Shown: piece after piece, positions 4,083-52,439 of the stretch
Layout of the letters: every line of letters starts with the position of its first letter
Numbering within the stretch: position 1 is the stretch's first letter
IMG/VR virus record: IMGVR_UViG_3300033463_000011
Coordinates: 96,001-160,000 of that record
Reading direction: 5' to 3' (one strand)
DNA: 64,000 nt
Origin: a virus
Lineage: Duplodnaviria; Caudoviricetes
Made by a program: the position numbers and the translations under genes
Notes under the pieces: generated by a model
What the model saw: only the letters and a program-made list of their open reading frames with translations
Told to the model about the DNA's origin: nothing
The model's database searches: none

Positions 4083-4454
4083 ATGAAAATATATTGCTCT
4101 AGAGATTATTCACAAGATTATATAGTTTATCATCTCGATAGGTTTGTAGGAAAAGATATTTGGATAGCAGCAAATGTTGGGCCTAGTAAACACGGATCTT
4201 TAGATAGTGTATATGATTGCACAATAAAAATAATTTCCCAAACAGATAGCAGCTACAAATTTTATAAAGTATATCGTGTTTATTTAGCAGGTCGTGTAGT
4301 TCCTTTGTTAAATGAATCTTTGGAACGAGTTTATACAGCGAGGAAAACTATGATTCATGTAAGAGATCCGCTTACTGTATATACTACAGAGGAAGTGTTT
4401 AATGATTTTGCGGAGTATGGTTCTCATGACGATGATTATGATGATGTAGAGTAG
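4083..4454 (+). CDS. GKDxW-family paralog 1/40
   Basis: MKIYCS...LDRFVGKDIWI...DPLTVYTTEEVF. Confidence 0.85.
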   Translation: MKIYCSRDYSQDYIVYHLDRFVGKDIWIAANVGPSKHGSLDSVYDCTIKIISQTDSSYKFYKVYRVYLAGRVVPLLNESLERVYTARKTMIHVRDPLTVYTTEEVFNDFAEYGSHDDDYDDVE

Positions 4455-4456
4455 CT

Positions 4457-4984
4457 ATGGCAGATACAGAACACGGAAAGAAAGCAGAAGAAAAAATTAA
4501 GTTATGGCTGAACCGTCCTCAGGATGGATATAGTTTTGATAGAATTCCTGACCAGATGTCAGGGCTTTATCGTGTTTCAAGAAATATATGCGATTTCGAC
4601 TTCTATAAGTATCCATATATGTATTATTGCGAAAGCAAATGTACTGAGCATGATAGGTTTGAGTTTAATCAGTTAACTGATACCCAGAGAAACGGATTGA
4701 GGTTAAAAGCAGAAATTCGAGGAGTATACGGAATAGTAATTGTATTATTTGCAGCCCAAAAAAGGGCATTTGTATTTGATATAAGAGATATCGCAGATAT
4801 TGATCCTGATAAAGATGCAAAAGCAGATGATAAAACATTCCTTAAGATTAAATCAGTAAATATAAAGAAAATTGATAAATGGACAATTTCATATAAAGAG
4901 ATTAGAACAGTTCCAAGCAGAAAAGAATTTTTAGACTATGAAGGGGAAATAGAAGAATACATGCCGAATAGGAGCAATACATGA
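4457..4984 (+). CDS. RecU-like Holliday junction resolvase (PD-(D/E)XK)
   Basis: GKKAEEKI, RIPDQ, NICDF, ESK, LTDTQ pattern typical of phage RecU-like resolvases. Confidence 0.7.
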   Translation: MADTEHGKKAEEKIKLWLNRPQDGYSFDRIPDQMSGLYRVSRNICDFDFYKYPYMYYCESKCTEHDRFEFNQLTDTQRNGLRLKAEIRGVYGIVIVLFAAQKRAFVFDIRDIADIDPDKDAKADDKTFLKIKSVNIKKIDKWTISYKEIRTVPSRKEFLDYEGEIEEYMPNRSNT

Positions 4985-5397
4985 AAGTATATGTAAGGTC
5001 TTCAACTTGTACTCAAGACATTCAAAAATTTCTAGGTAAAGATATCTGGGTTAAAGTTAGTGTAGATGTGATTAGATACTATTGGGCAAAAATAGTGGGA
5101 CAATCTGAACATTTTTGGTACATTATACGACTGGATACATGGGACTTAGGCGACTATGGAAAACTCAAAATAGAAGACGGATCTGAATTCATTTCTAAAA
5201 TACGTAAAGACCGATTCAGTTTATCTTATCCAATAGAAGCATATACATCGGCAGAAATGCTTGATATGTTACAACCTACCCCCGAAGGTTACTCACTCGC
5301 AAAATCGGCTAAAGGTAACTACTATTGGCATTATGATGGAGAGAGGTCAGATAACGACGGAATTCAATACGACGTGCCTATAGGTTACCTTATATGA
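4981..5397 (+). CDS. GKDxW-family paralog 2/40
   Basis: MKVYVRSS...FLGKDIWVKV...YPIEAYTSAEML. Confidence 0.85.
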   Translation: MKVYVRSSTCTQDIQKFLGKDIWVKVSVDVIRYYWAKIVGQSEHFWYIIRLDTWDLGDYGKLKIEDGSEFISKIRKDRFSLSYPIEAYTSAEMLDMLQPTPEGYSLAKSAKGNYYWHYDGERSDNDGIQYDVPIGYLI

Positions 5398-5427
5398 TAA
5401 TATATTAAATTAGTTGAGGAGATATTT

Positions 5428-5823: not shown

Positions 5824-5833
5824 GGAGAATACA

Positions 5834-6322: not shown

Positions 6323-7240
6323 ATGAAGCAGTATATAAAAACAAGTAAACGATCTGATTTAATCAACGAGAAGAACCAGTGGCGTATGAAATATGACGCC
6401 AGAAGAGTTTTGTATGAATCTCAAACAAAACAATTTAATGACGCTGCAGATGCTTGGGAAGATCGTGTAATTAGAAAAGTATACAACCGATTTTCAGAAT
6501 ACTTTGAGAATATGCCCGGAGTTGAAATATACGTAGATGGCGGATATGATTATGATTCTTTATTTTCCAGAATAATCATTTCAAGATCTTCTTATCAAGG
6601 AGAATCTGGAGTTAACTGGGATTATGATGTATGTATTCATCCTACTAAAGATACAAAAACAATATGTTCTTGGAGTAACGGAAGGGCTAGAACTAGTGCT
6701 GGACATGATGTTCAAGCTGTATTAAACGAATTAGCTTATTCTACTCAGTTATTAAAAGAATTTGCTAATTTAGATTGGAAGCAATTTTTATACGAAGAAT
6801 TACTTTCAATGCCTAAGAAACGCCAATTCATTTCTGTATCTGATCCAGACTATGATCCAGAATATCAAGATCCGGGATATGACAATATGATACTTTATTC
6901 TGAAGTTGATCAAATTATCGGCAAAGACCTGTGGATGTTAACTAATACAGATAGATACTCTAGTGATTACGTTTGGGTAAAAATACTTTCTATAAATAAC
7001 GGAAAGTATAAATTTTACGCAGTTGCTGATCATGCGAATGCAAGTGTAATTTCATTAACTAATATACGTGATACTATAGTAACAAACAACTTAGGATTAG
7101 GCTCAACTACGGAATCCGACTTTAAGAGTCATTATGTTCCGGAACAACCGCTTAACATAGTAACAACAAGCGAATTAATAGAACATTATGAAAATAAGAT
7201 TGAATCTCGGATAGATCAGTTACGTGTACACGAGGAATAA
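6323..7240 (+). CDS. GKDxW-family paralog 3/40 (long form: N-terminal extension plus C-terminal family domain)
   Basis: MKQYIKTS...IIGKDLWML...QPLNIVTTSELI; N-terminal part homologous to 7249..8100. Confidence 0.85.
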   Translation: MKQYIKTSKRSDLINEKNQWRMKYDARRVLYESQTKQFNDAADAWEDRVIRKVYNRFSEYFENMPGVEIYVDGGYDYDSLFSRIIISRSSYQGESGVNWDYDVCIHPTKDTKTICSWSNGRARTSAGHDVQAVLNELAYSTQLLKEFANLDWKQFLYEELLSMPKKRQFISVSDPDYDPEYQDPGYDNMILYSEVDQIIGKDLWMLTNTDRYSSDYVWVKILSINNGKYKFYAVADHANASVISLTNIRDTIVTNNLGLGSTTESDFKSHYVPEQPLNIVTTSELIEHYENKIESRIDQLRVHEE

Positions 7241-7248
7241 ATTATAAT

Positions 7249-8100
7249 ATGTATATAAAATTTAGTAAAAAATTAGATTTAATACGAGAAAGAGATCAAT
7301 TCAAGCGCAATTTTGAAGCAAGGCAAGTGCTGTATGATTCTCAAATTAAAAACTACCGAGATGCAGAAGACCTTTGGGAAAGTATCATTGAATCTGAGAT
7401 AGAAAATGAATTTAAAGAATATATAAAAAATTTACCTTATTTGCGTATTTTTGTTAGAGCAATAGGCACCCAAGGTAATAGCATGAAAATAACAATTATA
7501 TATAATAATGAAGCTGATTCTAATTCCCCTAAGTGGAGATATGATGTAGATTTAGCTGCAAATGAAGATGACGAGGGCGTCCACATAGTTACGTCTACTC
7601 CTGCTATGTACTGGGATAGAATAAATTTTGCACAAATTGATATGGCGGAAATCTTACTAAATTCTGCAAAGTTAATCAGAGCTTTTGCAGATTTTGATTG
7701 GCAACGTTTAGTTGATTCCGCACTTGAAACAATTCCTAAGAAGAAAAATTACGTAGGAATAACTGAACCTAAATATGATATAGATTATCAAGATCCGGGA
7801 TATAACAGAAAGATACTTGAAGCACAGATAGAAGAAATCGTTGGAACTGATAACTGGTTAGTTGTAGATAATTACGGAGCTAAAAAATATATCAAAGTAA
7901 TTGATAACATTGGAGATTTTATACAATACAAATGTATATATCCTAACCTTTTAAATACAAGGGAACTAAATGAAGAATTAGAATCTGAACCTAATGCGGA
8001 TTTGAAAGATGATTTCTTTGAAATGTTTAAATTGCTTGAACCGTTAGAGATTATACCAGAAGATGATTTAAGAGATATTGCGAGTAGCTACGACGGGTGA
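7249..8100 (+). CDS. GKDxW-family paralog 4/40 (long form, tandem duplicate of 6323..7240)
   Basis: Shares DLI.E..Q....AR..LY.SQ and YD..YQDPGY with 6323..7240; C-terminal IVGTDNWL...EPLEII. Confidence 0.85.
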   Translation: MYIKFSKKLDLIRERDQFKRNFEARQVLYDSQIKNYRDAEDLWESIIESEIENEFKEYIKNLPYLRIFVRAIGTQGNSMKITIIYNNEADSNSPKWRYDVDLAANEDDEGVHIVTSTPAMYWDRINFAQIDMAEILLNSAKLIRAFADFDWQRLVDSALETIPKKKNYVGITEPKYDIDYQDPGYNRKILEAQIEEIVGTDNWLVVDNYGAKKYIKVIDNIGDFIQYKCIYPNLLNTRELNEELESEPNADLKDDFFEMFKLLEPLEIIPEDDLRDIASSYDG

Positions 8101-8405: not shown

Positions 8406-10088
8406 ATGAAGGTTTACATCAGTGCAGCAAAAACAATTCAGCAACTCAAAGAACAAGACGCTCCAGATATGGATGAGTCGATCTTTGAAGAGTTAGTTAG
8501 ATTAGATCCTACATCAAAATATGATGAAGGAAAAGGAGGTAAATATACTCCTTGGGTCATTCGTCAATATAAGAAAGGTAATATTGACCTTGATGCAGAA
8601 GGCGAAGATAGTGTTGTAAACAGCTTAGTAGATTCTCTTGGATTATTTACTAAAGATTTCAAACATTTTAGCAAGAGAGATATCAATCAGTATAAAACAG
8701 TTCAAGAATTCTTAGACGAATCTAGACGAGTAGGTAATAGAGAATTAACTCCTAAGGAACTCGAAAAGCTTCATGGCAAACAGGCTCATCTTGCAGGTGA
8801 TAACGACAAGCAGTGTCTTGTAGAAGACGGCGATTGGCAGGTTTGGACACCCAAGACTTATGCAGGTTCAATTGCACTTGCAAGAATGGGTGGAGGTAAA
8901 CAAGCTGAATGGTGTACTGCTTGGACAAGAAGCGATAGCTACTATAGAAGTTACACAGCTAGAGGTCCACTTTACATTTTTATTAATAAGAATAACACTG
9001 GTGAAAAGTATCAGTCACATTTCGGAAACGATGGTAGAATTTCTTGGTTCTACGATATAGACGATCATGAGCGTGGCCAGCAAGCATTTACAGAGTTCTG
9101 TGCTAAGCATCCTAAGATCCAGCAATTCTTTAAACTTGAAAATAAAGATGGAATTCAAACAATGGCAGGTAATGTTATTGGCTATGATCCAAATGCTACT
9201 AAGATTGTTATTCCTGAAGGAGGTAGTCTGCTTTCAGGTAAGAGATTACCTTCTAGCCTCGAAACAGTAGTACTTCCTGATACAATGACATCATTACCTA
9301 GCTCAGTATTTGCAGGATTAGCTTCACTAGTAAATGTTCGTTTGCCTAAATCATTAACAGAAATTCCTTCGGATACATTTAAAAATTGCACTTCATTATC
9401 TCATATTGATATTCCCGATTCTGTTACAGTATATGGCAGTAATGCGTTTTCGGGGTGCACAAGTTTAAAGACAATTAATCACAGTAACAGCTTACAAGAA
9501 GTTAAAGACTATTGTTTCAAAGACTGCACGAGTCTTGAAGATGACTTACCTAATACAGTAACAAAGTTAGGTAAAGACGTATTCGCAGGTGCTGATTTAG
9601 CCGAATTTACAATGCCTGAAAGCTTAATGGAGATTAGCCCTAGTTCATTCGCAGGATGTAATATAAAGCAATTTAACATCAACAATGTCAAGACAATCAA
9701 AGCAAACGCATTTAAAGAATCTGGAGTTAATTCAATTGATTTGCGTAATGTAAATCACATTGGAAGTAATGCCTTCAGAGGATGTAACAAACTCACTACA
9801 TTTGATTTTAACCCTGAAGGAGTATCCATTGGTCCTTATGCTTTTGCAGATAGCAAAGCAAAACCTTCAAAGCCTATAACACTTTATCCTTCTACTACAA
9901 TTGATATTGGTACATTCGATAATTGTCCCAATATGACGATTCAGTGGGAAAAAGATGATGAACCTTATCCGTTCTTCAATATAGGATTACTTATTTGCGA
10001 TGAAAAGAAGTGCCCTGAATTAGTACGAGAGAATAAGGGAACAGTTAGGATACAAACAACTCAAGGTAATGAATATCCTGTAACATAA
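8406..10088 (+). CDS. MKVYISAA-tagged protein: N-terminal helical region, WCTA domain, BspA-type leucine-rich repeats
   Basis: Repeats such as LPKSLTEIPSDTFKNCTSL and IPDSVTVYGSNAFSGCTSL; GDWQVWTPKT...WCTAW...GPLYIFINK...KYQ. Confidence 0.85.
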   Translation: MKVYISAAKTIQQLKEQDAPDMDESIFEELVRLDPTSKYDEGKGGKYTPWVIRQYKKGNIDLDAEGEDSVVNSLVDSLGLFTKDFKHFSKRDINQYKTVQEFLDESRRVGNRELTPKELEKLHGKQAHLAGDNDKQCLVEDGDWQVWTPKTYAGSIALARMGGGKQAEWCTAWTRSDSYYRSYTARGPLYIFINKNNTGEKYQSHFGNDGRISWFYDIDDHERGQQAFTEFCAKHPKIQQFFKLENKDGIQTMAGNVIGYDPNATKIVIPEGGSLLSGKRLPSSLETVVLPDTMTSLPSSVFAGLASLVNVRLPKSLTEIPSDTFKNCTSLSHIDIPDSVTVYGSNAFSGCTSLKTINHSNSLQEVKDYCFKDCTSLEDDLPNTVTKLGKDVFAGADLAEFTMPESLMEISPSSFAGCNIKQFNINNVKTIKANAFKESGVNSIDLRNVNHIGSNAFRGCNKLTTFDFNPEGVSIGPYAFADSKAKPSKPITLYPSTTIDIGTFDNCPNMTIQWEKDDEPYPFFNIGLLICDEKKCPELVRENKGTVRIQTTQGNEYPVT

Positions 10089-10106
10089 ATTTTTGGAGGA
10101 AACTAG

Positions 10107-11387
10107 ATGAAAGTTTATATACGTGCAGCTCTTACAGTTAAGCAGCTTGAAACTCAAAATGGCGTAGGTTTAACAAAGCCTGTTCTTAAGCAAATCATTG
10201 AAATTGATCCTACATCAAACTACGACGAGGGAAAAGGCGGAAAATATTGTCCTTGGCTTATTAAGCAGCATAAGCTTGGCAATCTTACTCCTGACGATTA
10301 TACAAATGTCAAAGATGCTTTAGAGCTGTTCTCTAAAGACTTCAGACATTATCCTAATTCTGATATAAATCAGTATAAGACAGTAGAGCAATTCTTGTCT
10401 GATACTAACGCAGTAGCTAATAGAGAACTCACTGACAGAGAAAAAGAGAAGTTGCATGGTAAGCAAGCACATCAGGCTGGAGACGACGATAAGGAATTTC
10501 TTGTTGCAGATGGTGATTGGGAAGTTTGGACCCCTAAAACCTACACAGGTTCAATTGCTTTAGCAAGAATGGGCGGTGGAGGTCAGGCCGACTGGTGCAC
10601 AGCATGGACACGTAGTGATAATTATTATAAAAGCTACACTGCTAGGGGGCCTTTGTATATTTTCTTAAACAAGGGTAATACAGGAGAAAAGTATCAGCTT
10701 CATTTCCAGTCAGATTCTTGGTATGACGCAAGAGATAGATCTCTTGGAATGGATGCATTTTACGATTTTATCGCAAAATATCCTAAGTTCAAAGAATTCT
10801 TCAAGGTTAAATCAGAGGGTGGCGTACTTTCTAGGGCAGGTTCTATTATCAAGTATGATCCTGAAGCAACAGTTATCGATGTTCCTGCAGGGATGGAAAA
10901 GCTTCCTAACTTTAAATTCCCCGATAAATGTAAAGTAGTAAATCTTCCTGATTCTATTACTGAAATACCTCCTAAATGCTTTGAAAATTGCAAAGTAGAA
11001 ACTGTTACATTTAATAACGTAACTGCTATAAAAGCAGGAGCATTCAGAGGTTCAAGCATCAAGAACATTGACCTTTCTGGTGTAACACATATCGGAAGTA
11101 GTGCATTTAGAGATTGTAAGAAACTGCAATCAATAGATCTTAATCCAGAAGTAGTAATTAATTCATATTCCTTTGCAGGAGATCCAATTGGTGGCACTGT
11201 TGTAGTTGCTCCTACAATGAAACTTTCTATGAGTTCTTTCGAAGATTGTGCTAACCTCACAATAGTTTGGGAGAAGGAAGATGAACCTTACAGCTTCTAT
11301 GGAATTAAAGAATTAGTATTAGATCCTAAAGCTTGTCCAGAGTTATTTGAAATGAATAACGGAGAAGTACCTATTAGAAAGGTATAA
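10107..11387 (+). CDS. MKVYIRAA-tagged paralog of 8406..10088 with fewer LRRs
   Basis: Highly similar N-terminal half (DPTS.YDEGKGGKY.PW); LRRs LPDSITEIPPKCFENC and VTHIGSSAFRDCKKL. Confidence 0.85.
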   Translation: MKVYIRAALTVKQLETQNGVGLTKPVLKQIIEIDPTSNYDEGKGGKYCPWLIKQHKLGNLTPDDYTNVKDALELFSKDFRHYPNSDINQYKTVEQFLSDTNAVANRELTDREKEKLHGKQAHQAGDDDKEFLVADGDWEVWTPKTYTGSIALARMGGGGQADWCTAWTRSDNYYKSYTARGPLYIFLNKGNTGEKYQLHFQSDSWYDARDRSLGMDAFYDFIAKYPKFKEFFKVKSEGGVLSRAGSIIKYDPEATVIDVPAGMEKLPNFKFPDKCKVVNLPDSITEIPPKCFENCKVETVTFNNVTAIKAGAFRGSSIKNIDLSGVTHIGSSAFRDCKKLQSIDLNPEVVINSYSFAGDPIGGTVVVAPTMKLSMSSFEDCANLTIVWEKEDEPYSFYGIKELVLDPKACPELFEMNNGEVPIRKV

Positions 11388-11391
11388 CATA

Positions 11392-11578: not shown

Positions 11579-11899
11579 ATGCGAAATTATAAAAATACTC
11601 TAGACAAATTTGTTGGGCAAGACGTTTGGGTTAAGGTCTACGAAGTAATTAAATATGGAGTAGGTCGAGGTTCAAATGAATATACAATCGAAAGCTGGAT
11701 AAGAATAGTAGAAGCTACAAAAGATATGTATATTGTTAATATATTGAATGATAGAAGAGTAACTCATTCTGGCTTTTATTCTTGCAATGAAGCTGAAAAA
11801 GAAAAGGTATTATCAACTTCGTTTGGGTTTCCTAAATCATATTTTACATTATTTGAACCGCTTGACTGCCTTACTACAGAAGAAATACTGGGAGATTAA
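11579..11899 (+). CDS. GKDxW-family paralog 5/40 (lacks the MKIY tag)
   Basis: LDKFVGQDVWVKV...EPLDCLTTEEILG. Confidence 0.8.
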   Translation: MRNYKNTLDKFVGQDVWVKVYEVIKYGVGRGSNEYTIESWIRIVEATKDMYIVNILNDRRVTHSGFYSCNEAEKEKVLSTSFGFPKSYFTLFEPLDCLTTEEILGD

Positions 11900-11901
11900 T
11901 C

Positions 11902-12678
11902 ATGAAAATTGAATCTTCAAAATTTAATTTATTCGGAAAAAACAAAGATAACTTTCAAAGAGAAATCAAACAAGCTATCGGAAAGAATATCTGGGTCAAG
12001 GTTGAGTTATTTAAAAATTCTCCTTTAGTTAATATGATGAATGTTAGCAGCATGTTTGGAATACACGGAACATGTTGGGTAAGACTACTAGCAGTTGTAG
12101 ATAACTTTTATATTTGCAATATATGCAAGGCAAGCGAATCTGAAGAAGGCACTGTTGAAGTAACTAAAGAAGAGATAAAGAAAATCCTCACAACTAAATG
12201 TAAAATTAGCGTAGGTACAGTAAGTTTAGTTACTCCTGTTGAAATGTTAACTACTGACGAATTGTTTAATGTTGTTGAGAATCATTCACAACCAGAAGTT
12301 AACGATGCCAATGAGGATGAGTACATTGAAGAAATTGCAGATGATGATGTCCACAACAATTGGCCTAATCGACAATTTTGGGAGAATTGCGAGGACATAG
12401 ATGAGATATGGAACGATTATCTCAATGTGCCTGAAAATATCATAAATCAGGAACTGCAAATATTTCCAGAACCTTCAGTTCAAGGAGGTATGGGCGGAAT
12501 GTTTATTTATGATGAATCTGGCGAACACAGATTTTCAAATATATACGTAGATTATCAAGAATGGTGTGAAGCAGAATTAGAAATGGCAGCAGATTCTACT
12601 TCAGCAGAAGAATACGCAGATAGATATAGAGACTACGTTCTTGAATTAATGGATAACGCAGAAGTTGAAGAAGAGTAA
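11902..12678 (+). CDS. GKDxW-family paralog 6/40 fused to an acidic C-terminal domain
   Basis: MKIESS...IGKNIWVKV...PVEMLTTDELF, then a ~130-aa acidic domain. Confidence 0.85.
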   Translation: MKIESSKFNLFGKNKDNFQREIKQAIGKNIWVKVELFKNSPLVNMMNVSSMFGIHGTCWVRLLAVVDNFYICNICKASESEEGTVEVTKEEIKKILTTKCKISVGTVSLVTPVEMLTTDELFNVVENHSQPEVNDANEDEYIEEIADDDVHNNWPNRQFWENCEDIDEIWNDYLNVPENIINQELQIFPEPSVQGGMGGMFIYDESGEHRFSNIYVDYQEWCEAELEMAADSTSAEEYADRYRDYVLELMDNAEVEEE

Positions 12679-12928
12679 ATGAAAATATACGCATCTAACA
12701 GAAATAACAACATACTTGAACGCATCATAGGAAAAGATGTCTGGATTTTGGTAGATATTCTAGAAGCTGAAACATGGGCAGAAAAGTTTTACAAAAGATA
12801 CTTTATTCAAATAGATGGGAAAGATTCTGAATTTTACAGCCCAGATTACAATCACTCGTGTCAGGAAAGATGATATAAAAGTAATTGAACCAATTGAAAT
12901 ATATACAACTGACGAATTATTTAACTAA
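12679..12928 (+). pseudogene. Frameshifted/internally deleted GKDxW-family paralog 7/40
   Basis: MKIYAS...IIGKDVW stops at 12873. The family C-terminus (QITITRVRKDDIKVIEPIEIYTTDELFN*) continues in the +1 frame to TAA 12928. Confidence 0.8.
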
Positions 12929-12970
12929 TTTTTCTCAATTATAATCTACATAGAGTTCAGTCGTAATTAG

Positions 12971-13396
12971 ATGGAGTTTTATATTTATATGGATTTTGAT
13001 ACAAATAATCATTCAGTATTCAAATTGCATTATCATCTTATTATGTGTGTGAAATATCGTAATAAGGTTATCACAGATGATATATCTATGCGACTAAGAA
13101 GTATTTTTGAATATATTGCACCAAACTACAATATTGTGTTAGAAGAATGGAACCATGATGTAGATCATGTGCATATACTTTTTAGGGGAGCCCCAAATAC
13201 CGAAATAAGCAAATTCATAAATGCATATAAATCTGCAAGTAGTCGGCTTATCAAGAAAGAATTTCCCCAGATCCGCAAATCCCTTTGGAAAGAAATGTTT
13301 TGGTCACAAAGTTTCTGTCTCATATCAACTGGGGGTGCAACTGTAGATACAATTAAAAAATATATACAATCCCAAGGAAAGAAAGATGGCAAATAA
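12971..13396 (+). CDS. tnpA: IS200/IS605 HUH (Y1) transposase
   Basis: LHYHLIMCVKYR, DHVHIL (HUH), INAYKSASSR, FWSQSF, KKYIQSQ (catalytic Tyr). Confidence 0.95.
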   Translation: MEFYIYMDFDTNNHSVFKLHYHLIMCVKYRNKVITDDISMRLRSIFEYIAPNYNIVLEEWNHDVDHVHILFRGAPNTEISKFINAYKSASSRLIKKEFPQIRKSLWKEMFWSQSFCLISTGGATVDTIKKYIQSQGKKDGK

Positions 13397-42686: not shown

Positions 42687-42688
42687 CA

Positions 42689-43003
42689 ATGAAGATATAC
42701 GCATCAAAAGTAGATTTAGCTGATCTTGATTACTATGTCGGTAAAGATTTATGGGTTAGAGTTACTTCCGCTTCAACTACTTGTTGGGCTAAATTACTAT
42801 CTAAAGGCGAAGATAGTAGAAGTGTATATTACAGATGTTTAGCAATATTTGATGGAATGCTAGATGTTGACGGTATGATTCATCTAAACGCTTCAGCATT
42901 AGCTGAATTTTACGACCATATATACATAATGTGGACAGACAACTCGTATGTAGTTCAGCCTATAGATATACTTGAAGAAGACGAAATAATCGAGAGGATA
43001 TGA
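42689..43003 (+). CDS. GKDxW-family paralog 22/40
   Basis: MKIYAS...YVGKDLWVRV...QPIDILEEDEI. Confidence 0.88.
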   Translation: MKIYASKVDLADLDYYVGKDLWVRVTSASTTCWAKLLSKGEDSRSVYYRCLAIFDGMLDVDGMIHLNASALAEFYDHIYIMWTDNSYVVQPIDILEEDEIIERI

Positions 43004-43006
43004 TTT

Positions 43007-43351
43007 ATGAAGATATATGCATCATATTATCATGACCTAGACCAATTTGCTGGAGAAGATTTATGGGTTAAGATAGATTATCACATGGGTAGTAACTATG
43101 ATAATCAATCAATGTATGTTAAGGTCTTGCTTAGTTTTAGGGATACCGAATTCTTGTGGTACGAAGTTCAAGCCGTTGCTACAGATTGGGTAGAGTCCCC
43201 AGATTGCTATTTTGGATTAAGAGAATGTATGGAAAAAGCAAGATTAATAAAAGAAGGTGATTATAGTATATCACGCCCAATGGAATGTTATACTACAGAT
43301 GAAATGCTAGAGCTTCTTGGAGATTCTCTTGATAGAGGAATACTCGATTGA
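43007..43351 (+). CDS. GKDxW-family paralog 23/40
   Basis: MKIYAS...FAGEDLWVKI...RPMECYTTDEM. Confidence 0.88.
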   Translation: MKIYASYYHDLDQFAGEDLWVKIDYHMGSNYDNQSMYVKVLLSFRDTEFLWYEVQAVATDWVESPDCYFGLRECMEKARLIKEGDYSISRPMECYTTDEMLELLGDSLDRGILD

Positions 43352-43360
43352 GGTAACCAT

Positions 43361-43723
43361 ATGAAAATATACGCGTCAACATCGGAAGATAGAAAGCATA
43401 AGATCTTGGAAAGCTTAGTAGGTAAAGATCTGTGGATTAAAGCAAAATTATATGAAGGTAACTTAGCAAAAAATGATTACTATGTGCATATCATTAAGAA
43501 ACTGCGCCCTCAAATTGGTTTTGATTACGAAGTTAACCGCATAATGGATAGCTCTGATCTTCCAGGATATGAAGATTCACAAGGAAGAATAACCTTAGAT
43601 GCTTTTCATAATGCCTATCTTGCACACAGTCATTGGATGAATGCATCTGATATACATCCAGTAATTCCAATTGAAGTGTACACATCAGAAGAACTATTTA
43701 TCGCCCCTGAGGAAGAACAATGA
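43361..43723 (+). CDS. GKDxW-family paralog 24/40
   Basis: MKIYAS...LVGKDLWIK...IPIEVYTSEELF. Confidence 0.88.
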   Translation: MKIYASTSEDRKHKILESLVGKDLWIKAKLYEGNLAKNDYYVHIIKKLRPQIGFDYEVNRIMDSSDLPGYEDSQGRITLDAFHNAYLAHSHWMNASDIHPVIPIEVYTSEELFIAPEEEQ

Positions 43724-44040
43724 AAATATACGCAAGCGATCAGAAAAATATTTTAGACAGATTGTGTGGCACAGATCATTGGATAAAAGTCGCTTACAAT
43801 AACCATATCTATCTGTTTAACATATTAGAACGATTTAAGAATATGGATGGCAGAATGATGTTAAGATGCAAAATGGTTATGTGGAATCAACTAGTTATGC
43901 CTAAAGATTACAGAAGATCAATAGATTTGATATACAAAATTGACAAATACTATTACGTATATGAAGATCTAGTAACGGTAAAAGAACCAATTGATGTGAT
44001 AACAGATGACGAATTAATTGATATGATACAAGGTACCTAA
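43720..44040 (+). CDS. GKDxW-family paralog 25/40
   Basis: MKIYAS...LCGTDHWIKV...EPIDVITDDEL. Confidence 0.88.
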   Translation: MKIYASDQKNILDRLCGTDHWIKVAYNNHIYLFNILERFKNMDGRMMLRCKMVMWNQLVMPKDYRRSIDLIYKIDKYYYVYEDLVTVKEPIDVITDDELIDMIQGT

Positions 44041-44059
44041 AGGTACCTTTAATATTATT

Positions 44060-44371
44060 ATGAAGATATATTGTAGCACAGAATCAGAGTTTGACAAATT
44101 TGTAGGAACTGACCTTTGGGTTAGGGCAAATTATTATGGAGGAAAATACTTCATAAGGTTTCTGTCCAAAAATAATTATGCAGACGAGCGTGGATATGTT
44201 ACTAATATGGTTAGAACACTTTGCGCAGGTGATGATGGATTCATTCATTATAGTCATGAATATGAATTAGAGTATGTGCAAATGGAAAAAAGTTGGTGTA
44301 GTGCAGAAAATCTATTATTAATTAAGCCAATAGAATGCTATACAACAGATGAATTATTCATAGTAGATTAA
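44060..44371 (+). CDS. GKDxW-family paralog 26/40
   Basis: MKIYCS...FVGTDLWV...KPIECYTTDELF. Confidence 0.88.
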   Translation: MKIYCSTESEFDKFVGTDLWVRANYYGGKYFIRFLSKNNYADERGYVTNMVRTLCAGDDGFIHYSHEYELEYVQMEKSWCSAENLLLIKPIECYTTDELFIVD

Positions 44372-44380
44372 GAGAATGTT

Positions 44381-44740
44381 ATGAAGATATATTGTAGTAG
44401 AGATCCAAGAAAATTACTAAAACAGTATGTAGGTAAGGACATATGGATTAAAGTCCACTTGCCTAAATCTGCTCATCACCCAGATGATCCAAATGTCCTC
44501 TATATGAGGATATTATCCGAATCGGATAAGTGCTACACAGTTAACTTACTTAATCCGATAGTTGTAGACTATAACTTCGGCATGAATATAACAGATTATG
44601 ATTTAAATAAATTCTTAAATAAAATTAGTACTGTTGACAAAGATGACATAATGTTAATTGAACCTCTAGAAGCATATTCTACAGACGAAATATTTACTGA
44701 AGTACCTGATGATTATAACTACGAGGAAGATGGAGAATAA
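44381..44740 (+). CDS. GKDxW-family paralog 27/40
   Basis: MKIYCS...YVGKDIWIKV...EPLEAYSTDEIF. Confidence 0.88.
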   Translation: MKIYCSRDPRKLLKQYVGKDIWIKVHLPKSAHHPDDPNVLYMRILSESDKCYTVNLLNPIVVDYNFGMNITDYDLNKFLNKISTVDKDDIMLIEPLEAYSTDEIFTEVPDDYNYEEDGE

Positions 44741-44743: not shown

Positions 44744-45208
44744 ATGGCAGAAACAACATCGTTATCATTTCCAAATATGTTCAACTTAATAAGTAATCAA
44801 GTATCTGTAGACGAGGACTTAAAGTCAGTTACTACTAGGTCAAGATTACTTATATTAACTGAGCCCACAGAATTATACAACAACCCTAACTTCGGTGTAG
44901 GATTAAAGCGTCATTTGTTTAAGTATAACACTGAAAATGAAAAAGCATTAATCAAAGATAGGATTGTTGCACAATTAAGATTACATGAACCCGATGTAGT
45001 TGCCGAAAAAACATCATTTACTGATGGATTATTATTCACAGGAGATTCCAGTTTACAACATGTTGATGATGCAAATGAATTAAATATGACTGTAGCAATG
45101 CTAACTACTTTCGGAAAAGAAATCTCACTTGATTTAAATCCTAAGCAACCTATAGAAGGCGAGTTAACTATAAATAGTTCGGGCTGGTCTATAACGGAGG
45201 TAGATTAA
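44744..45208 (+). CDS. Baseplate wedge protein, T4 gp25/gpW-like
   Basis: SLSFP...LILTEPTELYNNPNFGVGLKRHLF...LRLHEP. Confidence 0.8.
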   Translation: MAETTSLSFPNMFNLISNQVSVDEDLKSVTTRSRLLILTEPTELYNNPNFGVGLKRHLFKYNTENEKALIKDRIVAQLRLHEPDVVAEKTSFTDGLLFTGDSSLQHVDDANELNMTVAMLTTFGKEISLDLNPKQPIEGELTINSSGWSITEVD

Positions 45209-45855
45209 TGAAGATATACGGTGGATATTCAATTAAACAAAAACAGAGTATCAATCTTATTAAGCAAGGAATTGATGATCACTTAAGCGAATTTTCTGAT
45301 TATGTTAGCTATGACATAAAAGCAGTAAAAAATGATGTAGATAATAGTTTTAATATATTATTACGCCCTAACTATTACGGCATTACTTGGAAGTATACTG
45401 TATCAATTGTACATAATTACATAGGTGAATCTCTTCATATTTTAGATAGCTATATTAATTCGAACGATACTGATAATTCTTTTGAAAAGATTAAACAATT
45501 TTCAGAATTCTTCGAGTACATAAATAATGTGGGCTGGAGAAGCATACTTTCAAATTATTTTACTTACTTAAATAAAGATCTAAACAATACAATAAAATAT
45601 TTGAAGAGAATTGAGGGAAAAGACTTGTGGGTTAAATGTAACTGTCTATGTTATAACGATGACTACGGCAGATATTCTTGGACTTCCGGTGGGTATGTTA
45701 AAATTTTACGTATAGAAGACGATGTAATAGAATATAATTACAAAACACTATATGGATCAGATGGCAGCGGATCATGCAATATTTATGATATACAATTATC
45801 TAGTCCTTTAGAGGTATTAAGTACAGAAGAGTTGTTAGATACAGATGCTACATAA
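45208..45855 (+). CDS. GKDxW-family paralog 28/40 (long form)
   Basis: MKIYGG, ~125-aa insert, then IEGKDLWVKC...SPLEVLSTEELL. Confidence 0.85.
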   Translation: MKIYGGYSIKQKQSINLIKQGIDDHLSEFSDYVSYDIKAVKNDVDNSFNILLRPNYYGITWKYTVSIVHNYIGESLHILDSYINSNDTDNSFEKIKQFSEFFEYINNVGWRSILSNYFTYLNKDLNNTIKYLKRIEGKDLWVKCNCLCYNDDYGRYSWTSGGYVKILRIEDDVIEYNYKTLYGSDGSGSCNIYDIQLSSPLEVLSTEELLDTDAT

Positions 45856-45884
45856 GACATAAAATAATAAGCAGGAGGTCACTA

Positions 45885-46625
45885 ATGAGAATATATTCAT
45901 CAAAAACATCAGAAAAACTTGCAAAATTATCCGAGCTTAAAAGTTCTCAAAGTGAAATCAACAAAGCAAAACGCGCATTGAATAGAAAGATTAATGAAGT
46001 AAAGAAGCGAATTGACGCAGAATTTAAAGAAGAGGCCGCAATACTTCATACTGATTCTTTACTTAAAGTTAAAAATGAAAAATACGGGTTTGTTTTAAGA
46101 TTTTCTTCTACTTACGGAGTAAGGTGGTATGTAGATGTAGATGCAGATTCAATTAAGTCGCATATATTCAAAGAAGATAACATAATAGAATGCGGAGATA
46201 TATTTATTACAATTGGAAATATATTAAATAAAATATATAATAATTCGTTTGAAGATGAAATACTGGAGTTAAATACGCTAGACGACGAATATAAGCAATT
46301 GCAATCAGATGCTTTATATTTCAAATCGGGAATATCCGCTCTTGAGTTAGAAAAATTTGTTGGTAGAGATATATGGGTCGAAGCAAATATTAAACATCTC
46401 ACTAATTATTCAGTCCCACAACATGCATTCATAAAGATAAAAGATATAAAATCAGATAATAAGGTGGCGATTAGTTGGAAATTTGCTCATACTAATCGAG
46501 ACGGTACAATATATATTTCAGGATATGGTAGAGATGATGGATTAACAGATGCATATAACATATCATTAGTACAGCCTATAAATACATTAACAGATGAAGA
46601 AATGAATGAATTAATAAATTTGTAA
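45885..46625 (+). CDS. GKDxW-family paralog 29/40 (long form)
   Basis: MRIYSS, coiled-coil insert, then FVGRDIWV...QPINTLTDEEM. Confidence 0.85.
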   Translation: MRIYSSKTSEKLAKLSELKSSQSEINKAKRALNRKINEVKKRIDAEFKEEAAILHTDSLLKVKNEKYGFVLRFSSTYGVRWYVDVDADSIKSHIFKEDNIIECGDIFITIGNILNKIYNNSFEDEILELNTLDDEYKQLQSDALYFKSGISALELEKFVGRDIWVEANIKHLTNYSVPQHAFIKIKDIKSDNKVAISWKFAHTNRDGTIYISGYGRDDGLTDAYNISLVQPINTLTDEEMNELINL

Positions 46626-46626
46626 T

Positions 46627-46929
46627 ATGAAGATATATGCTACAACAAATCAATATGATCTATCTCGATACTCGGGCAGAGATGTATATGTGTATGCTTG
46701 CGTGCAGGGAGTAAAGGTATCTTGGTATAAATGGACTAAAATAATAGATATTCACGGAGATGTTGCAAGTGTTATATTCTGGGACTATCCAGAATCCAAA
46801 CAGGTGTTTAATATTCCTCTAGAGTCAATTAGTATAGATACAGAGTTTCCTGTTGAGGTTATGACTTATAATGAGATACTAGATGAAAAATTAGACAATG
46901 CTAGAAGAAGATTAGCAGGAGAGAATTAA
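46627..46929 (+). CDS. GKDxW-family paralog 30/40
   Basis: MKIYAT...YSGRDVYV...FPVEVMTYNEI. Confidence 0.85.
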   Translation: MKIYATTNQYDLSRYSGRDVYVYACVQGVKVSWYKWTKIIDIHGDVASVIFWDYPESKQVFNIPLESISIDTEFPVEVMTYNEILDEKLDNARRRLAGEN

Positions 46930-46930
46930 G

Positions 46931-47245
46931 TTGAAGATATATTGCAAGGAACAATTACATGAATCAAATCCTTATAAATATATAGGAAGAGATGTATGGA
47001 TCCATGTTTTGTATGGCGCTGATTATGCTTGGGTCAAATTCAAAGATAGCGGTAAAGACGAAAACGGATACTACTTCATTGTTGATTATGTAGACGACCA
47101 ATGGTTAGAAAACCCAGAATGTAATATAGAAATTGAAATGGATCATGATGCTAAATGGTATACACACCACATGTGCATATCTAATCCTGTGGAAATATTA
47201 ACAACGGAAGAACTTTTAGCTAGAGATTATGATGCATACATTTGA
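46931..47245 (+). CDS. GKDxW-family paralog 31/40 (TTG start)
   Basis: MKIYCK...YIGRDVWI...NPVEILTTEELL. Confidence 0.88.
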   Translation: MKIYCKEQLHESNPYKYIGRDVWIHVLYGADYAWVKFKDSGKDENGYYFIVDYVDDQWLENPECNIEIEMDHDAKWYTHHMCISNPVEILTTEELLARDYDAYI

Positions 47246-47269
47246 AGAAGCAACAATAGGTAATACTAT

Positions 47270-47647
47270 ATGAAGATATATTGTAGCACTAACAAAAGTA
47301 TATTTGAGAAACTTGCAGGTAAAGATATGTGGGTTAAAGGAACTGCATCTCGTGATGCTGCAGGTATAGTTAGCACATTAACTATATCCGTTTGGTTTAA
47401 GATACTTTACGCAGATAGTATTATATGCCGTTTTAATATAGTTAATCCTTTAGTTATGTCAAATTCAGCTATACTTGAATGCTATATTGACGATACATAT
47501 ACAATGCATACAACAGATAAAGATAGTTCTATGACTTATACAATAAACTATCCTTTAGACACTCTTACAGATGAAGAATTCAAAGAGATAAAGCAACAAG
47601 ACAACTGGACAGCAATTTTGTTTAAAGAGTATTCTGGAGAAGCCTGA
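47270..47647 (+). CDS. GKDxW-family paralog 32/40
   Basis: MKIYCS...LAGKDMWVK...YPLDTLTDEEF. Confidence 0.88.
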   Translation: MKIYCSTNKSIFEKLAGKDMWVKGTASRDAAGIVSTLTISVWFKILYADSIICRFNIVNPLVMSNSAILECYIDDTYTMHTTDKDSSMTYTINYPLDTLTDEEFKEIKQQDNWTAILFKEYSGEA

Positions 47648-47967
47648 TGAAGATATATTGTAGTAACAATTCAAACGAACTCGACAAATTTATCGGCAAA
47701 GATATCTGGGTTAAGGTATATGACAAATATGTCGAGTGTTTTAAATACATACGAATTGTATCATCAAATAGCACTTCATACAGCTATAATCAATTATTTG
47801 CATCAAGTCTAGAAAATCCTTATGGTGATGTTATGTTTACCGGAGGCGGTAATCGCCTTTTAGGATACTTTACAAATAATGTTTATCAAGACTACAAAAG
47901 TACTTTAGAAATAGTGCATCCTGTAACTTGTTATACCACTTCTGAAATATTTCCGGAGGAAGATTAA
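47647..47967 (+). CDS. GKDxW-family paralog 33/40
   Basis: MKIYCS...LDKFIGKDIWVKV...HPVTCYTTSEIF. Confidence 0.88.
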   Translation: MKIYCSNNSNELDKFIGKDIWVKVYDKYVECFKYIRIVSSNSTSYSYNQLFASSLENPYGDVMFTGGGNRLLGYFTNNVYQDYKSTLEIVHPVTCYTTSEIFPEED

Positions 47968-48297
47968 ATGAAAATATACGCAAGTAAAAGATATCATTAT
48001 TATGAAGATATATTAGACGATATCTGCGGAAAAGATTTATGGGTATTTATACGATATAATTCATCTACTGTTTATGCACGTGGTGGATACTACCCTCAAA
48101 ATTATTGGGTACAAGTTGTACGCAAAGACAATGATAACTATATTGTAAAAATGATAAATGACAATACTTATGGATTTGACACTTTAGATGACATAGAACC
48201 TAATAAACTCAACACATTCAGAATTTTAGACATATATGAACCGTTAGAGTTGTTATCAACAGAAGAATTGATTGAAGATAAGGAATTAGATGAATGA
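47968..48297 (+). CDS. GKDxW-family paralog 34/40
   Basis: MKIYAS...ICGKDLWV...EPLELLSTEELI. Confidence 0.88.
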   Translation: MKIYASKRYHYYEDILDDICGKDLWVFIRYNSSTVYARGGYYPQNYWVQVVRKDNDNYIVKMINDNTYGFDTLDDIEPNKLNTFRILDIYEPLELLSTEELIEDKELDE

Positions 48298-48635
48298 AAA
48301 TATATTGTAGTAGCCAGAAACAGCTCAACAGATATGCAGGTAGAGATTTATGGTTTCATGGTAATATAAATAATCATGTAGCTAAAAATGGAGTTACTAC
48401 TTGGGTTAGAGTTTTAGATAAAGTGCCTTCGCAATATATTGATACTTATAAAGTTCAGTGTGTTCCTGATTTTCTTATTGAAGATGAATATTATTTTGAC
48501 ACTGAAAGAATTGTTGGTTGGCTGCAGGATATACGTAATGTGTCTTATGACAAGATTTACATAAGTGATGAAGCATTAACTTCCGAAGAATTGTTTGGAG
48601 ATAACTTATGGGAAGTTGAGGAGTGGATAAAATGA
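48294..48635 (+). CDS. GKDxW-family paralog 35/40
   Basis: MKIYCS...YAGRDLWF...ALTSEELFG. Confidence 0.88.
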   Translation: MKIYCSSQKQLNRYAGRDLWFHGNINNHVAKNGVTTWVRVLDKVPSQYIDTYKVQCVPDFLIEDEYYFDTERIVGWLQDIRNVSYDKIYISDEALTSEELFGDNLWEVEEWIK

Positions 48636-48979
48636 AAATATATTGTTCAAAAAATAATCCTACTATAGACGATTTCATCGGCAAAGATGTTTGGGTAAAA
48701 TGTTATAGGTCTGATAGATATGATTTCAAGAGATTAGTTTATGTTAATCTCTACGATAAACTTGGCGAAGATCAGTACTACGGAAAAAATATATCGGCTA
48801 ATGTTATAGATGATATGCGCACGGTATTTGATCAATACATGGATGTTAGCGGAAGAGACGATGTGAGAGATTTTGTTGAAGGTGAACCTTGGGAGTTTCC
48901 TGCAAAGTTGGAATTATTCAAACCAGTAGAAATAATTACACATGATGAATTAATTGATATGCTAGGTGATGAGGAATGA
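48632..48979 (+). CDS. GKDxW-family paralog 36/40
   Basis: ATG 48632: MKIYCS...FIGKDVWVKC...KPVEIITHDEL. Confidence 0.88.
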   Translation: MKIYCSKNNPTIDDFIGKDVWVKCYRSDRYDFKRLVYVNLYDKLGEDQYYGKNISANVIDDMRTVFDQYMDVSGRDDVRDFVEGEPWEFPAKLELFKPVEIITHDELIDMLGDEE

Positions 48980-49305
48980 AAATATACGGATTTACAATAA
49001 ATAAGAAGCTAGATAGATTTGTAGGTAGAGATGTTTGGGTTAAAGTTTATCAAGACGCCGCTCCTGTTGTTACTGCACCTATTCTCTATATAAGAATTTT
49101 ATCCAGAGAAGGAAACAAACTTACACTAAACACACTGAATCCAGATATCGTTGAAAATAGCAGACACTGTAGAGATTTACGAATTATTTTTGAAAATATA
49201 GTAACTTGGCCTCAAGAAAGAATTTTACTAATAGAACCAGTTGAAGCATTAACAACAGAAGAACTAAAAGAGATAAACGAAGGAAATACAGATATAGTCG
49301 ATTGA
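48976..49305 (+). CDS. GKDxW-family paralog 37/40
   Basis: MKIYGF...LDRFVGRDVWVKV...EPVEALTTEEL. Confidence 0.88.
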   Translation: MKIYGFTINKKLDRFVGRDVWVKVYQDAAPVVTAPILYIRILSREGNKLTLNTLNPDIVENSRHCRDLRIIFENIVTWPQERILLIEPVEALTTEELKEINEGNTDIVD

Positions 49306-49370
49306 GAAGGTTTACAAAATGTAAACCTTTTTTACTATATATGATATCATAAAATACATAGGAGAATATT

Positions 49371-51263: not shown

Positions 51264-51454
51264 TACGTGAAGAAGAGATTAGGGCTAGAGAATTAGCCTC
51301 TAAAGTACTTGGAGACGAAGCAGAATCTCATGGAATTTGGAGGTTCATTCGTATCAAGATAGAAGATGACCCTAAGTATTCGAATCAATTGGAGTTATTT
51401 GCAATTTTAGATAAATATTTAACCTTAGGTTATATTAAAGGAAAGATAAAATGA
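51248..51454 (+). CDS. Small hypothetical protein
   Basis: Coupled ORF with GAGG RBS. Confidence 0.5.
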   Translation: MLNKVIREEEIRARELASKVLGDEAESHGIWRFIRIKIEDDPKYSNQLELFAILDKYLTLGYIKGKIK

Positions 51455-51822
51455 GGAGAAATATCATTAAGGTGTTTAATCAGATGAGTAATTTAATCAG
51501 TTTTATACAATTAAAGAACTTTAGCAAATATCTAGATTCAAATTACTGGATTCTTGCACATGAAACATTATCTCAAAATACTCTGTATATAAGGCCATTG
51601 TATATGTCCAGAGGTAAGTTATATTATAATTGTATTGGGCAAGGTTGGTTGGATCCGGAGGCACATCCATCTGATAGGCCATTTTCTGATAAATACTTGT
51701 TAGAGCATGTTAAAAACACATATCTTATGGATATAAAAATATTTCAGCCGCTTGATATATTTACAACCGATGAAATATTAGATTTTCTTAAAGATGTTCC
51801 TGTTACAGAAGGCGGTGTATAA
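51451..51822 (+). CDS. GKDxW-family paralog 38/40 (divergent, no tag)
   Basis: FSKYLDSNYWIL...LYIRPL...YYNCI...QPLDIFTTDEIL. Confidence 0.7.
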   Translation: MRRNIIKVFNQMSNLISFIQLKNFSKYLDSNYWILAHETLSQNTLYIRPLYMSRGKLYYNCIGQGWLDPEAHPSDRPFSDKYLLEHVKNTYLMDIKIFQPLDIFTTDEILDFLKDVPVTEGGV

Positions 51823-52092
51823 ATGAAAATATACGCAACCGGAGTTCATAATGATATACTAAACAAAATAGTTGGTAAAGAATTATGGATAGAGGGTTCT
51901 TTAGAGCCCGATGACGAACCTGTGTATACATGGATACAGATAGCCGAAATAGATACATATGATGAGTCTTGTTATATTCATTTCGTAGATAATTGCATAA
52001 TCCGCTGTTTTTGGTGCCCAATTAATAATATTTCACTCAAATTTCCATATAATATCATAACAACTGACGAATTATCTGAATTGACATTATGA
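51823..52092 (+). CDS. GKDxW-family paralog 39/40
   Basis: MKIYAT...IVGKELWI...FPYNIITTDEL. Confidence 0.88.
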   Translation: MKIYATGVHNDILNKIVGKELWIEGSLEPDDEPVYTWIQIAEIDTYDESCYIHFVDNCIIRCFWCPINNISLKFPYNIITTDELSELTL

Positions 52093-52439
52093 AAATATAC
52101 GCTAACAATTCAATCAAATCAATTTTAGACAAATTTATCGGCAAAGATTTGTGGATAAGAGTTCAGTTATGCGATCATATACCATATAGCATGTATTGGA
52201 TAATTATATTAGATAAATTTGAAAATCTTGACGGAACTTATTCTTATCATATAATGAAAGCACCTTCAACAGATAAAATTTTTGACGACTATTCATACAA
52301 CACGCTTTCTAGAAAAATACGTAGCCGAATAGCAGAAAGAGATTCTGATTTTGTTTTTGACATTAGTTGTGATAAAATTAGATTGACTAAGCCTCTTGAT
52401 GTAGCAACAACTGAAGAATTGTTTGGAGAACAAGAATGA
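52089..52439 (+). CDS. GKDxW-family paralog 40/40
   Basis: MKIYAN...LDKFIGKDLWI...KPLDVATTEELFG. Confidence 0.88.
   Translation: MKIYANNSIKSILDKFIGKDLWIRVQLCDHIPYSMYWIIILDKFENLDGTYSYHIMKAPSTDKIFDDYSYNTLSRKIRSRIAERDSDFVFDISCDKIRLTKPLDVATTEELFGEQE

What the first reader, a model, noticed from the sequence alone, without database searches (positions are those of the whole stretch)
4083..52439. Forty-member hypervariable paralog family (GKDxW domain) expanded in one phage genome
Seen: 40 ORFs share a ~100-aa architecture: MKIY[A/C]S, l-d-k-f-v-G[KRT][DE]xW[VI]k[VIC], a Y/W-[VI]-[KR]-[IV]-[LI] strand, a Y-x-[VC]-N strand, a highly variable middle, then P-[IVL]-[ED]-x-x-T-[TS]-[DE]-E. They fall in six clusters: 4083-8100 (4), 11579-12928 (3), 17974-20594 (8), 40568-44740 (12), 45208-49305 (10) and 51451-52439 (3). 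Outside the anchor motifs the members are very divergent, yet only one is visibly broken. Inference: this is a fixed scaffold with diversified surfaces kept under selection, like a library of binders against many host or competitor targets (for example anti-defence inhibitors). I recognise no named family.
Basis: partly seen in the sequence, partly recalled or inferred. Interest (0 to 1): 0.92.

Follow-up and report, generated by a model that had tools for sequence, protein, structure and literature searches.

The report
Swappable capsid-tagged small-barrel gene library
An uncultured 200-kb phage carries about 42 diverged copies of one small, unnamed beta-barrel protein. Most begin with a short tag that probably loads them into the virus head, and the DNA of that tag is also the point where whole copies are gained or lost between strains; what the proteins do is untested.

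Summary
Confirmed: 40 members at the stated places, plus 2 and a fragment elsewhere in the complete 200-kb genome; no Pfam, PHROG or PDB family.

New here:
1. The domain folds as an Sm/Hfq/WYL-like SH3-type barrel with a variable helical insert (pLDDT 83; Z about 4-5.6), without the conserved Sm strand-2 glycine.
2. It probably derives from a conserved ~280-aa founder gene. Complete relatives hold 0-2 copies; other phages hold arrays at the same slots; 1,050 clusters exist.
3. The MKIY[A/C]S start is a separable leader shared with unrelated late proteins. Its [IV]x[A/S/C][S/A/G] part is the motif repeated in this clade's capsid propeptide and protease scaffold tail, where cultured relatives have [ILV]xE.
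4. Thirty strain orthologues are under purifying selection (omega 0.19), variable insert included; no positive selection.
5. Five clean whole-gene gains or losses break inside the leader DNA.

Best reading: T4-internal-protein-like head cargo kept as a swappable library. Packaging, cleavage, expression and targets are untested, so 'anti-defence binders' remains a hypothesis. Precedents: T4 IPI-III, SPN3US family B. Other readers noted the leader and fold here, and the scan found leader-tagged paralog families in other phages.

The parts
4083..4454 (+). Single-barrel member with leader
   Evidence: HMM E 5e-25
4981..5397 (+). Single-barrel member with the long form of the leader
6323..7240 (+). 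Founder-type gene: loose leader, 48-aa helix, alpha/beta domain, C-terminal barrel; syntenic homologue conserved across the clade
   Evidence: AF2 of an orthologue, pLDDT 93
7249..8100 (+). Second founder-type copy
11579..12928 (+). Cluster 2: 11579-11899 (no leader), 11902-12678 (barrel plus acidic tail), 12679-12928 (frameshifted by a 26-bp deletion). Sits where relatives have a second ~325-aa founder gene
12971..14519 (+). IS200/IS605 tnpA + tnpB, inserted at the end of the broken member; absent from the near strain
17974..20594 (+). Cluster 3, downstream of the putative tail sheath; members start at 17974, 18336, 18662, 18979, 19320 (folded), 19622, 19930, 20259
   Evidence: all 8 orthologues in L033 with omega 0.09-0.39
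40568..44740 (+). Cluster 4, upstream of gp25; members start at 40568, 40912, 41286, 41594, 41992, 42333, 42689, 43007, 43361, 43720, 44060, 44381
   Evidence: gains and losses versus L006
44744..45208 (+). Baseplate wedge gp25, embedded between clusters 4 and 5 (gaps 3 and -1 nt); no leader
   Evidence: Pfam PF04965; gaps
45208..49305 (+). Cluster 5: 45208 and 45885 (extra N-terminal domain), 46627, 46931 (TTG start), 47270, 47647, 47968, 48294, 48632, 48976
51451..52439 (+). Cluster 6: 51451 (no leader), 51823 (absent in near strain), 52089
58308..59801 (+). Prohead protease (S77-like, catalytic His and Ser motifs visible) fused to a C-terminal scaffold tail with 8 [IV]x[ASC][ASG] sites
   Evidence: Pfam PF03420, E 7.5e-5, below cutoff; 8 observed vs 1.4 shuffled
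59836..60105 (+). Major capsid protein propeptide (~90 aa before the Gp23 domain) with 4 [IV]x[ASC][ASG] sites
   Evidence: Pfam Gp23 starts at residue 107
8406..11387 (+). Two leader-bearing proteins unrelated to the barrel (8406, 10107), BspA-type LRR. Other leader-bearing non-members in the window start at 556, 3079, 5428, 17286; looser forms at 56119, 57412
   Evidence: Pfam LRR_5 for 8406 and for the 10107 orthologue

Best explanation
The family is a library of small internal head (cargo) proteins of a T4-type myovirus clade. Step 1 (coupling shown, expression inferred): the genes are coupled into the late tail/baseplate operons. Step 2 (inferred): a basic N-terminal leader with Tyr addresses them to the prohead core, as the T4 capsid-targeting sequence does. 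Step 3 (inferred from motif sharing): the prohead protease, whose specificity in this clade appears to have moved from Glu to a small residue, cuts at [IV]x[A/S/C] and frees a ~95-aa acidic Sm/WYL-like barrel. Step 4 (inferred): the barrels enter the host with the DNA, and each acts through its own loops and helical insert on a distinct host partner, most plausibly defence or takeover proteins that differ between host strains. Step 5 (shown between two strains): the repertoire changes by precise whole-gene gain or loss through crossovers in the near-identical leader DNA, while each gene stays under purifying selection. The barrel was probably released from the C-terminus of a conserved founder protein (inferred from synteny and homology, not from a rooted tree).
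For: Leader on 52 genes of the genome: 47/139 in the late region, 5/34 in the tail-fibre/modification region, 0/77 early small ORFs, 0/26 replication genes; 21 and 14 genes in two relatives that hold only 2 and 1 barrels; 1 match in 2,564 internal Met positions. The leader is disordered in both AF2 models. In 42 tandem two-barrel homologues it precedes domain 1 in 37 and domain 2 in 0. [IV]x[ASC][ASG] occurs 53 times vs 10+-3 shuffled in 14 capsid propeptides and 87 vs 23+-5 in 14 protease tails; [ILV]xE is not enriched (1 vs 1.6; 90 vs 83). The three nearest cultured phages carry [ILV]xE in their capsid propeptides instead. Tail and baseplate proteins have 0-0.8 sites per 100 aa. Leader omega 0.17 with normal dS, and both codons used freely at Lys and Tyr. 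Omega 0.19 overall, no gene above 0.56. Five indels have both ends inside the leader DNA. Precedent: T4 CTS and IPI (PMC9026906); 20-member head paralog family B of SPN3US (PMC5694885).
Against: The related capsid and protease sequences are not independent, so the shuffle statistics overstate significance. The 5-6-residue leader is shorter than T4's 10-19. The residue after the site varies, and 3 members have no leader. No target or defence link was found. The members are acidic (median pI 4.75), whereas T4 IPs are basic. The arrays sit among tail and baseplate genes, not head genes.
Confidence: 0.6

Rival explanations
1. Head-internal but structural: the barrels are interchangeable fillers or core components (charge balance, DNA organisation, an inner body), not target-specific effectors.
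For: The same leader evidence. Uniformly acidic. SPN3US and phiKZ head paralog families are abundant and of unknown function (PMC5694885).
Against: Each paralog keeps its own variable insert under purifying selection (omega 0.19), which interchangeable fillers would not need. Complete relatives apparently build heads with 0-2 copies.
Confidence: 0.15
2. Not packaged: late cytoplasmic accessory proteins (for example superinfection exclusion or late anti-defence). The shared start is a translation-ramp and recombination element rather than an address.
For: K|N-Y|I and AADTAT at codons 3-5 raise expression (bioRxiv 10.1101/571059). The leader DNA does act as a crossover site.
Against: 83 of 94 genes with such a start also carry [IV]x[ASC], against a 15% background per I/V residue, and synonymous codons vary freely. 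The tag is absent from the abundant tail proteins and from all early and replication genes. It matches the capsid and scaffold repeat.
Confidence: 0.12
3. Sm/Hfq-like nucleic-acid-binding subunits that assemble into homo- or combinatorial hetero-rings and act on RNA or single-stranded DNA.
For: Best fold matches are WYL domains, Hfq and LSm (Z 4-5.6, rmsd 2.3-4 over 55-70 aa). The N-terminal helix and strand 1 resemble Sm, and the variable insert lies at the L4 position (PMC3710371). Tandem fusions are common. The founder barrel keeps a conserved basic patch.
Against: No conserved Gly in strand 2, and the basic patch is degenerate in the expanded members; 31 of 34 have pI below 6. Z below 8 may reflect only a common arrangement, and a de novo designed SH3 barrel scores as well. 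No Pfam LSM, Hfq or WYL hit for any member.
Confidence: 0.08
4. External virion decorations or SH3b-like cell-surface binders that diversify adsorption.
For: The arrays flank baseplate and sheath genes; SH3-type barrels bind cell walls in other phage proteins (own knowledge).
Against: The leader motif is shared with head-internal substrates and absent from tail parts. No SH3b structure among the listed fold matches. Other cargo-like genes share the same slots.
Confidence: 0.05

Closest known systems
Phage T4 internal proteins IPI/IPII/IPIII with the capsid-targeting sequence (CTS), cut by gp21 (PMC9026906)
   Same: Small late proteins with a short shared N-terminal leader ending in the motif repeated in the capsid propeptide and scaffold; a Gp23-type capsid and gp21-type protease in the same genome; variable between related phages. 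IPI inhibits a type IV restriction enzyme.
   Different: The site has Ala/Ser/Cys where T4 has Glu; the leader is 5-8 residues rather than 10-19; about 42 copies of one fold instead of three unrelated proteins; acidic rather than basic; packaging is not demonstrated here.
SPN3US head paralog family B (20 members; 2 in phiKZ) (PMC5694885)
   Same: A large lineage-specific expansion of one family of virion head proteins, with copy number varying strongly between related phages and unknown function.
   Different: A different phage group; twice the copy number; a shared leader that doubles as a DNA crossover site. Homology to family B was not tested directly (no PHROG or Pfam hit).
Sm/LSm/Hfq, WYL and Veg SH3-type beta-barrels
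   Same: Helix plus five-stranded barrel with a 3-10 turn before strand 5; variable insert between strands 3 and 4.
   Different: No conserved strand-2 Gly, no conserved nucleic-acid pocket, acidic, extra C-terminal strand and helix; no sequence-level match.

Membership tests
T4-type CTS internal proteins | Short N-terminal leader shared by otherwise unrelated late proteins | tested here: met
T4-type CTS internal proteins | Leader ends in the motif repeated in the capsid propeptide and scaffold of the same phage | tested here: met
T4-type CTS internal proteins | Cleavage motif with Glu at P1 ([ILV]xE; S/A-x-E in phiKZ) | tested here: not met
   [ILV]xE not enriched (1 vs 1.6; 90 vs 83) and absent from the leader; a small-residue motif replaces it
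T4-type CTS internal proteins | Genome encodes a Gp23-type capsid and a gp21/S77-type protease | tested here: met
   the protease hit is below Pfam's cutoff, but His and Ser motifs are visible
T4-type CTS internal proteins | Packaged in the head, leader removed, ejected into the host | not testable with these tools
   needs virion proteomics
Sm/LSm/Hfq | N-terminal helix plus five-stranded SH3-type barrel with variable L4 | tested here: met
   AF2 topology; fold matches at Z 4-4.8, only moderate
Sm/LSm/Hfq | Strictly conserved Gly in the bent strand 2 (PMC3710371) | tested here: not met
   column frequencies over 133 sequences
Sm/LSm/Hfq | Sequence match to LSM or Hfq profiles | tested here: not met
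   0 of 39 members at E<=0.1; no PDB sequence hit
Sm/LSm/Hfq | Cyclic oligomer that binds RNA | not testable with these tools
   needs biochemistry
WYL domain | Sm/SH3-type barrel fold | tested here: inconclusive
   CapW, BrxR, DriD at Z 4.8-5.6, rmsd 2.7-4.1, tied with a designed SH3 barrel
WYL domain | wHTH-WYL-WCX architecture and Pfam WYL match | tested here: not met
   stand-alone or other fusions; no Pfam hit
Anti-defence proteins (functional class) | Inhibits a defined host defence system | not testable with these tools
   no target data

The most novel reading that the evidence does not exclude
The phage carries a natural one-scaffold binder library: dozens of capsid-delivered Sm/WYL-like barrels, each with a fixed specificity for a different host defence or regulatory protein. 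They are drawn from a clade-wide pool of over 1,000 variants and swapped as cassettes because one 15-18-nt sequence encodes the capsid address and a new Ala/Ser protease site and also serves as the recombination site.
Probability: 0.3. Interest if true: 0.87.

Novelty: new variant of a known kind. Interest (0 to 1): 0.68.

Why it matters
Most dsDNA phages have few paralogs (PMC5694885); this one spends 15.8 kb of the window on about 40 copies of one unnamed domain, each kept intact. If the leader is a capsid address, it gives a very short packaging tag and a prohead protease with non-Glu specificity, both directly testable and useful for protein delivery. It would also mark 14-52 genes per genome in this clade as candidate injected cargo. 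The over 1,000 sequence clusters form a ready screening set for new anti-defence proteins in what is probably a Bacillota-infecting clade. The dual use of the leader DNA as a crossover site offers a simple mechanism for accordion-like cargo arrays.

Tried and rejected
- Family searches: Pfam, PHROGs and PDB sequence searches of members and founders gave nothing consistent. ESM Atlas feature hits were all below 0.9. No founder homologue among cultured phages.
- A homotrimer prediction of member 19320 gave no verdict (score 0.00, mark 0.42); it is not used for or against rings.
- Positive selection: looked for by gene and by region; none found.
- Recent local tandem duplication: rejected. Neighbours are no more alike than non-neighbours (P 0.3-0.8). 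Best hits fall outside the genome in 23 of 33 cases, as set sizes predict. No tree was built, because the signal is too low.
- Internal promoters or terminators in the arrays: not above shuffles.
- Translation ramp as the sole cause of the leader: rejected.
- A DNA pattern scan of bacterial and archaeal genomes gave 6 hits, none a family member.
- Twenty leader-bearing non-members had no informative Pfam hit.
- Paper searches found no description of this family.

Full report
Setting. The window is bases 96,001-160,000 of a 200,233-base virus record with a 133-base terminal repeat, so the genome is complete and circular. The window is the late structural region of a T4-type myovirus. Pfam identifies gp25 at 44744, NlpC/P60 and CHAP/tail lysozyme proteins at 37354 and 38502, an S77 protease at 58308 (below cutoff) and a Gp23 capsid protein at 59836. 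The nearest cultured phages share only 27-29% capsid identity. The IS605 transposase best matches Clostridia plasmids at 72-74%, a weak pointer to a Bacillota host. One relative comes from a record named STEW19, which from my own knowledge is a cattle rumen series.

The observation. An HMM recovered exactly the 40 members in the six clusters, plus two intact copies and a fragment elsewhere; reversed sequences gave no hits. Median identity between paralogs is 23%. The members occupy 15.8 kb, and most overlap or abut their neighbours, baseplate genes included. Five members are longer fusions and three lack the leader. The single broken copy (12679) has a 26-base deletion relative to an intact strain orthologue, and an IS605 element at its end. 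No named family matches.

Fold. AlphaFold with 133 sequences gave pLDDT 83: disordered residues 1-7, a short helix, three strands, a helical insert, strand 4, a 3-10 turn, strand 5, then a short strand and a C-terminal helix. The best structural matches are WYL domains, Hfq, LSm and a designed SH3 barrel, at Z 4-5.6; the founder's barrel matches Veg at TM 0.62 in the Atlas. These scores show a common barrel, not membership. The Gly that Sm proteins keep in strand 2 (PMC3710371) is missing, and 31 of 34 members have pI below 6. The conserved residues look like helix caps and core positions (inference). Variation lies in the strand 1-2 loop, the strand 2-3 turn and the insert.

Distribution and origin. 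The profile finds 1,050 clusters at 50% identity, many of them tandem two-barrel proteins. Every context read was a phage of this clade; a pattern scan of prokaryote genomes found no member. Copy number varies widely. Five nearly complete relatives show 0-2 matches (1 and 2 confirmed by my own search of two of them; the zeros rest on a loose first look). Other phages have arrays at the same slots, after the sheath and before gp25. Low-copy relatives keep one or two syntenic 270-335-aa genes: leader, long helix, alpha/beta domain, barrel. These are conserved at roughly 40-72% within the main group, with a basic patch in the barrel, and fold confidently (pLDDT 93) without a known match. Window genes 6323 and 7249 are of this type. 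I infer that the free barrels derive from these founders; no rooted tree was made. Neighbouring paralogs are no more alike than distant ones, and no closer to each other than to members from other phages. The arrays therefore look assembled from an old shared pool rather than by recent local duplication.

Selection and turnover. A near strain (97.7% identical in structural genes) supplied 30 orthologue pairs. Omega is 0.19 against 0.07 for core genes, and no gene exceeds 0.56. By region: leader 0.17, barrel strands 0.16-0.18, variable insert 0.19 (CI 0.13-0.26). Each paralog's peculiar surface is thus being conserved, which fits a distinct job for each but gives no sign of a fast arms race at this depth. 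The strains differ instead by whole genes. Five members occur only in the strain; 43361, 45885 and 51823 occur only in the window; 44060 is replaced by a 43%-identical gene. In five clean cases both ends of the indel fall within the first 11-18 bases of the leader-coding DNA.

The leader. The first five or six residues are not part of the domain. They are disordered in both models, and in tandem proteins they precede domain 1 in 37 of 42 cases and domain 2 in none. The same tag, in a short and a longer form, opens 52 genes here and 21 and 14 genes in two low-copy relatives, almost all unrelated to the barrel; it matches 1 of 2,564 internal Met positions. It is confined to late regions: 0 of 103 early and replication genes. 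Its second half, [IV]x[A/S/C] plus a small residue, is repeated in capsid propeptides (53 vs 10 expected) and protease scaffold tails (87 vs 23) across 14 relatives, while [ILV]xE is not enriched. Three cultured outgroup phages show [ILV]xE in their capsid propeptides. These sequences are related, so the counts are not independent. T4, phiKZ and SPN3US proteases all cut after Glu, at repeated sites in propeptides, and T4's internal proteins use a 10-19-residue leader with targeting in its first part and cutting in its second (PMC9026906). The clade-wide switch of motif in capsid, scaffold and leaders together is the strongest argument that the leader ends in the protease site. A translation ramp (bioRxiv 10.1101/571059) could favour the first residues but not the small-residue site: 83 of 94 such starts carry it, against 15% background, and synonymous codons vary freely.

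Mechanism. Shown: the family, predicted fold class, purifying selection, leader distribution, motif sharing, and crossovers in leader DNA between two strains. Inferred: late co-expression, prohead targeting, cleavage after a small residue, ejection, and action on host partners. I put about 0.75 on head-internal cargo of some kind and 0.6 on cargo that acts on distinct host partners. Anti-defence is the most plausible activity by analogy with T4 IPI, but nothing here tests it. Rivals are structural filler (0.15), unpackaged late proteins (0.12), Sm-like rings (0.08) and surface binders (0.05).

Comparison and verdict. It works like T4 IPI-III with their CTS and resembles SPN3US family B, 20 head paralogs of unknown function (PMC5694885). 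It fails the Glu-site test for a canonical CTS and the Gly and profile tests for Sm/Hfq, so it is filed under neither. Earlier notes of this scan proposed the leader and the Sm-like fold for this genome, and reported leader-tagged paralog families in other phages. I had both ideas before reading them and tested them here; those notes are not counted as support. Verdict: real, selected, undescribed in the papers searched; a new variant of a known kind; interest 0.68.

Noticed in passing
window 58308-60105 and loci L004, L007-L021: Clade-wide replacement of the Glu-type prohead protease motif by a small-residue motif in capsid propeptides and protease scaffold tails; absent in outgroup L022 and in cultured relatives L070-L072. 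Suggests a protease with new specificity.
   Followed up: partly
window 8406-11387, 56119-57237: Three leader-bearing paralogs share an N-terminal domain; two end in BspA-type leucine-rich repeats. Conserved in relatives; candidate packaged LRR proteins.
   Followed up: partly
L023 559-1626, L060 3399-5358, L059 4142-4498: In other phages the slot before gp25 holds leader-tagged proteins with short helical repeats, some fused to the barrel; the slot appears to be a general cargo hotspot.
   Followed up: no
G000:C1:31363-37592 (outside window; L054): A run of genes whose translations look like 7-deazaguanine DNA-modification enzymes (QueC, QueD, QueE, FolE-like); judged by eye, not scanned. Modified DNA would expose the phage to modification-dependent restriction.
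   Followed up: no
L001 10505-10747 and 12677-12898: A close relative with no barrels near gp25 has two similar ~75-aa genes without a leader in the same slots; possibly a second small paralog family.
   Followed up: no
window 12921-14659: IS200/IS605 (tnpA + tnpB) inserted exactly at the end of the broken member; absent in the near strain. Other TnpB-like ORFs lie at genome 50131 and 171831, the first beside a member fragment.
   Followed up: partly
window 61478-63364: Cys-rich zinc-ribbon-repeat protein right after the capsid gene, with similar N-termini at genome 62495, 94403 and 159509; probably mobile endonucleases.
   Followed up: no
window 21247-23403: SNF2-type helicase with a zinc-binding insert, followed by small non-structural genes, embedded in the late region; a second SNF2-like helicase lies at genome 183064.
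   Followed up: no
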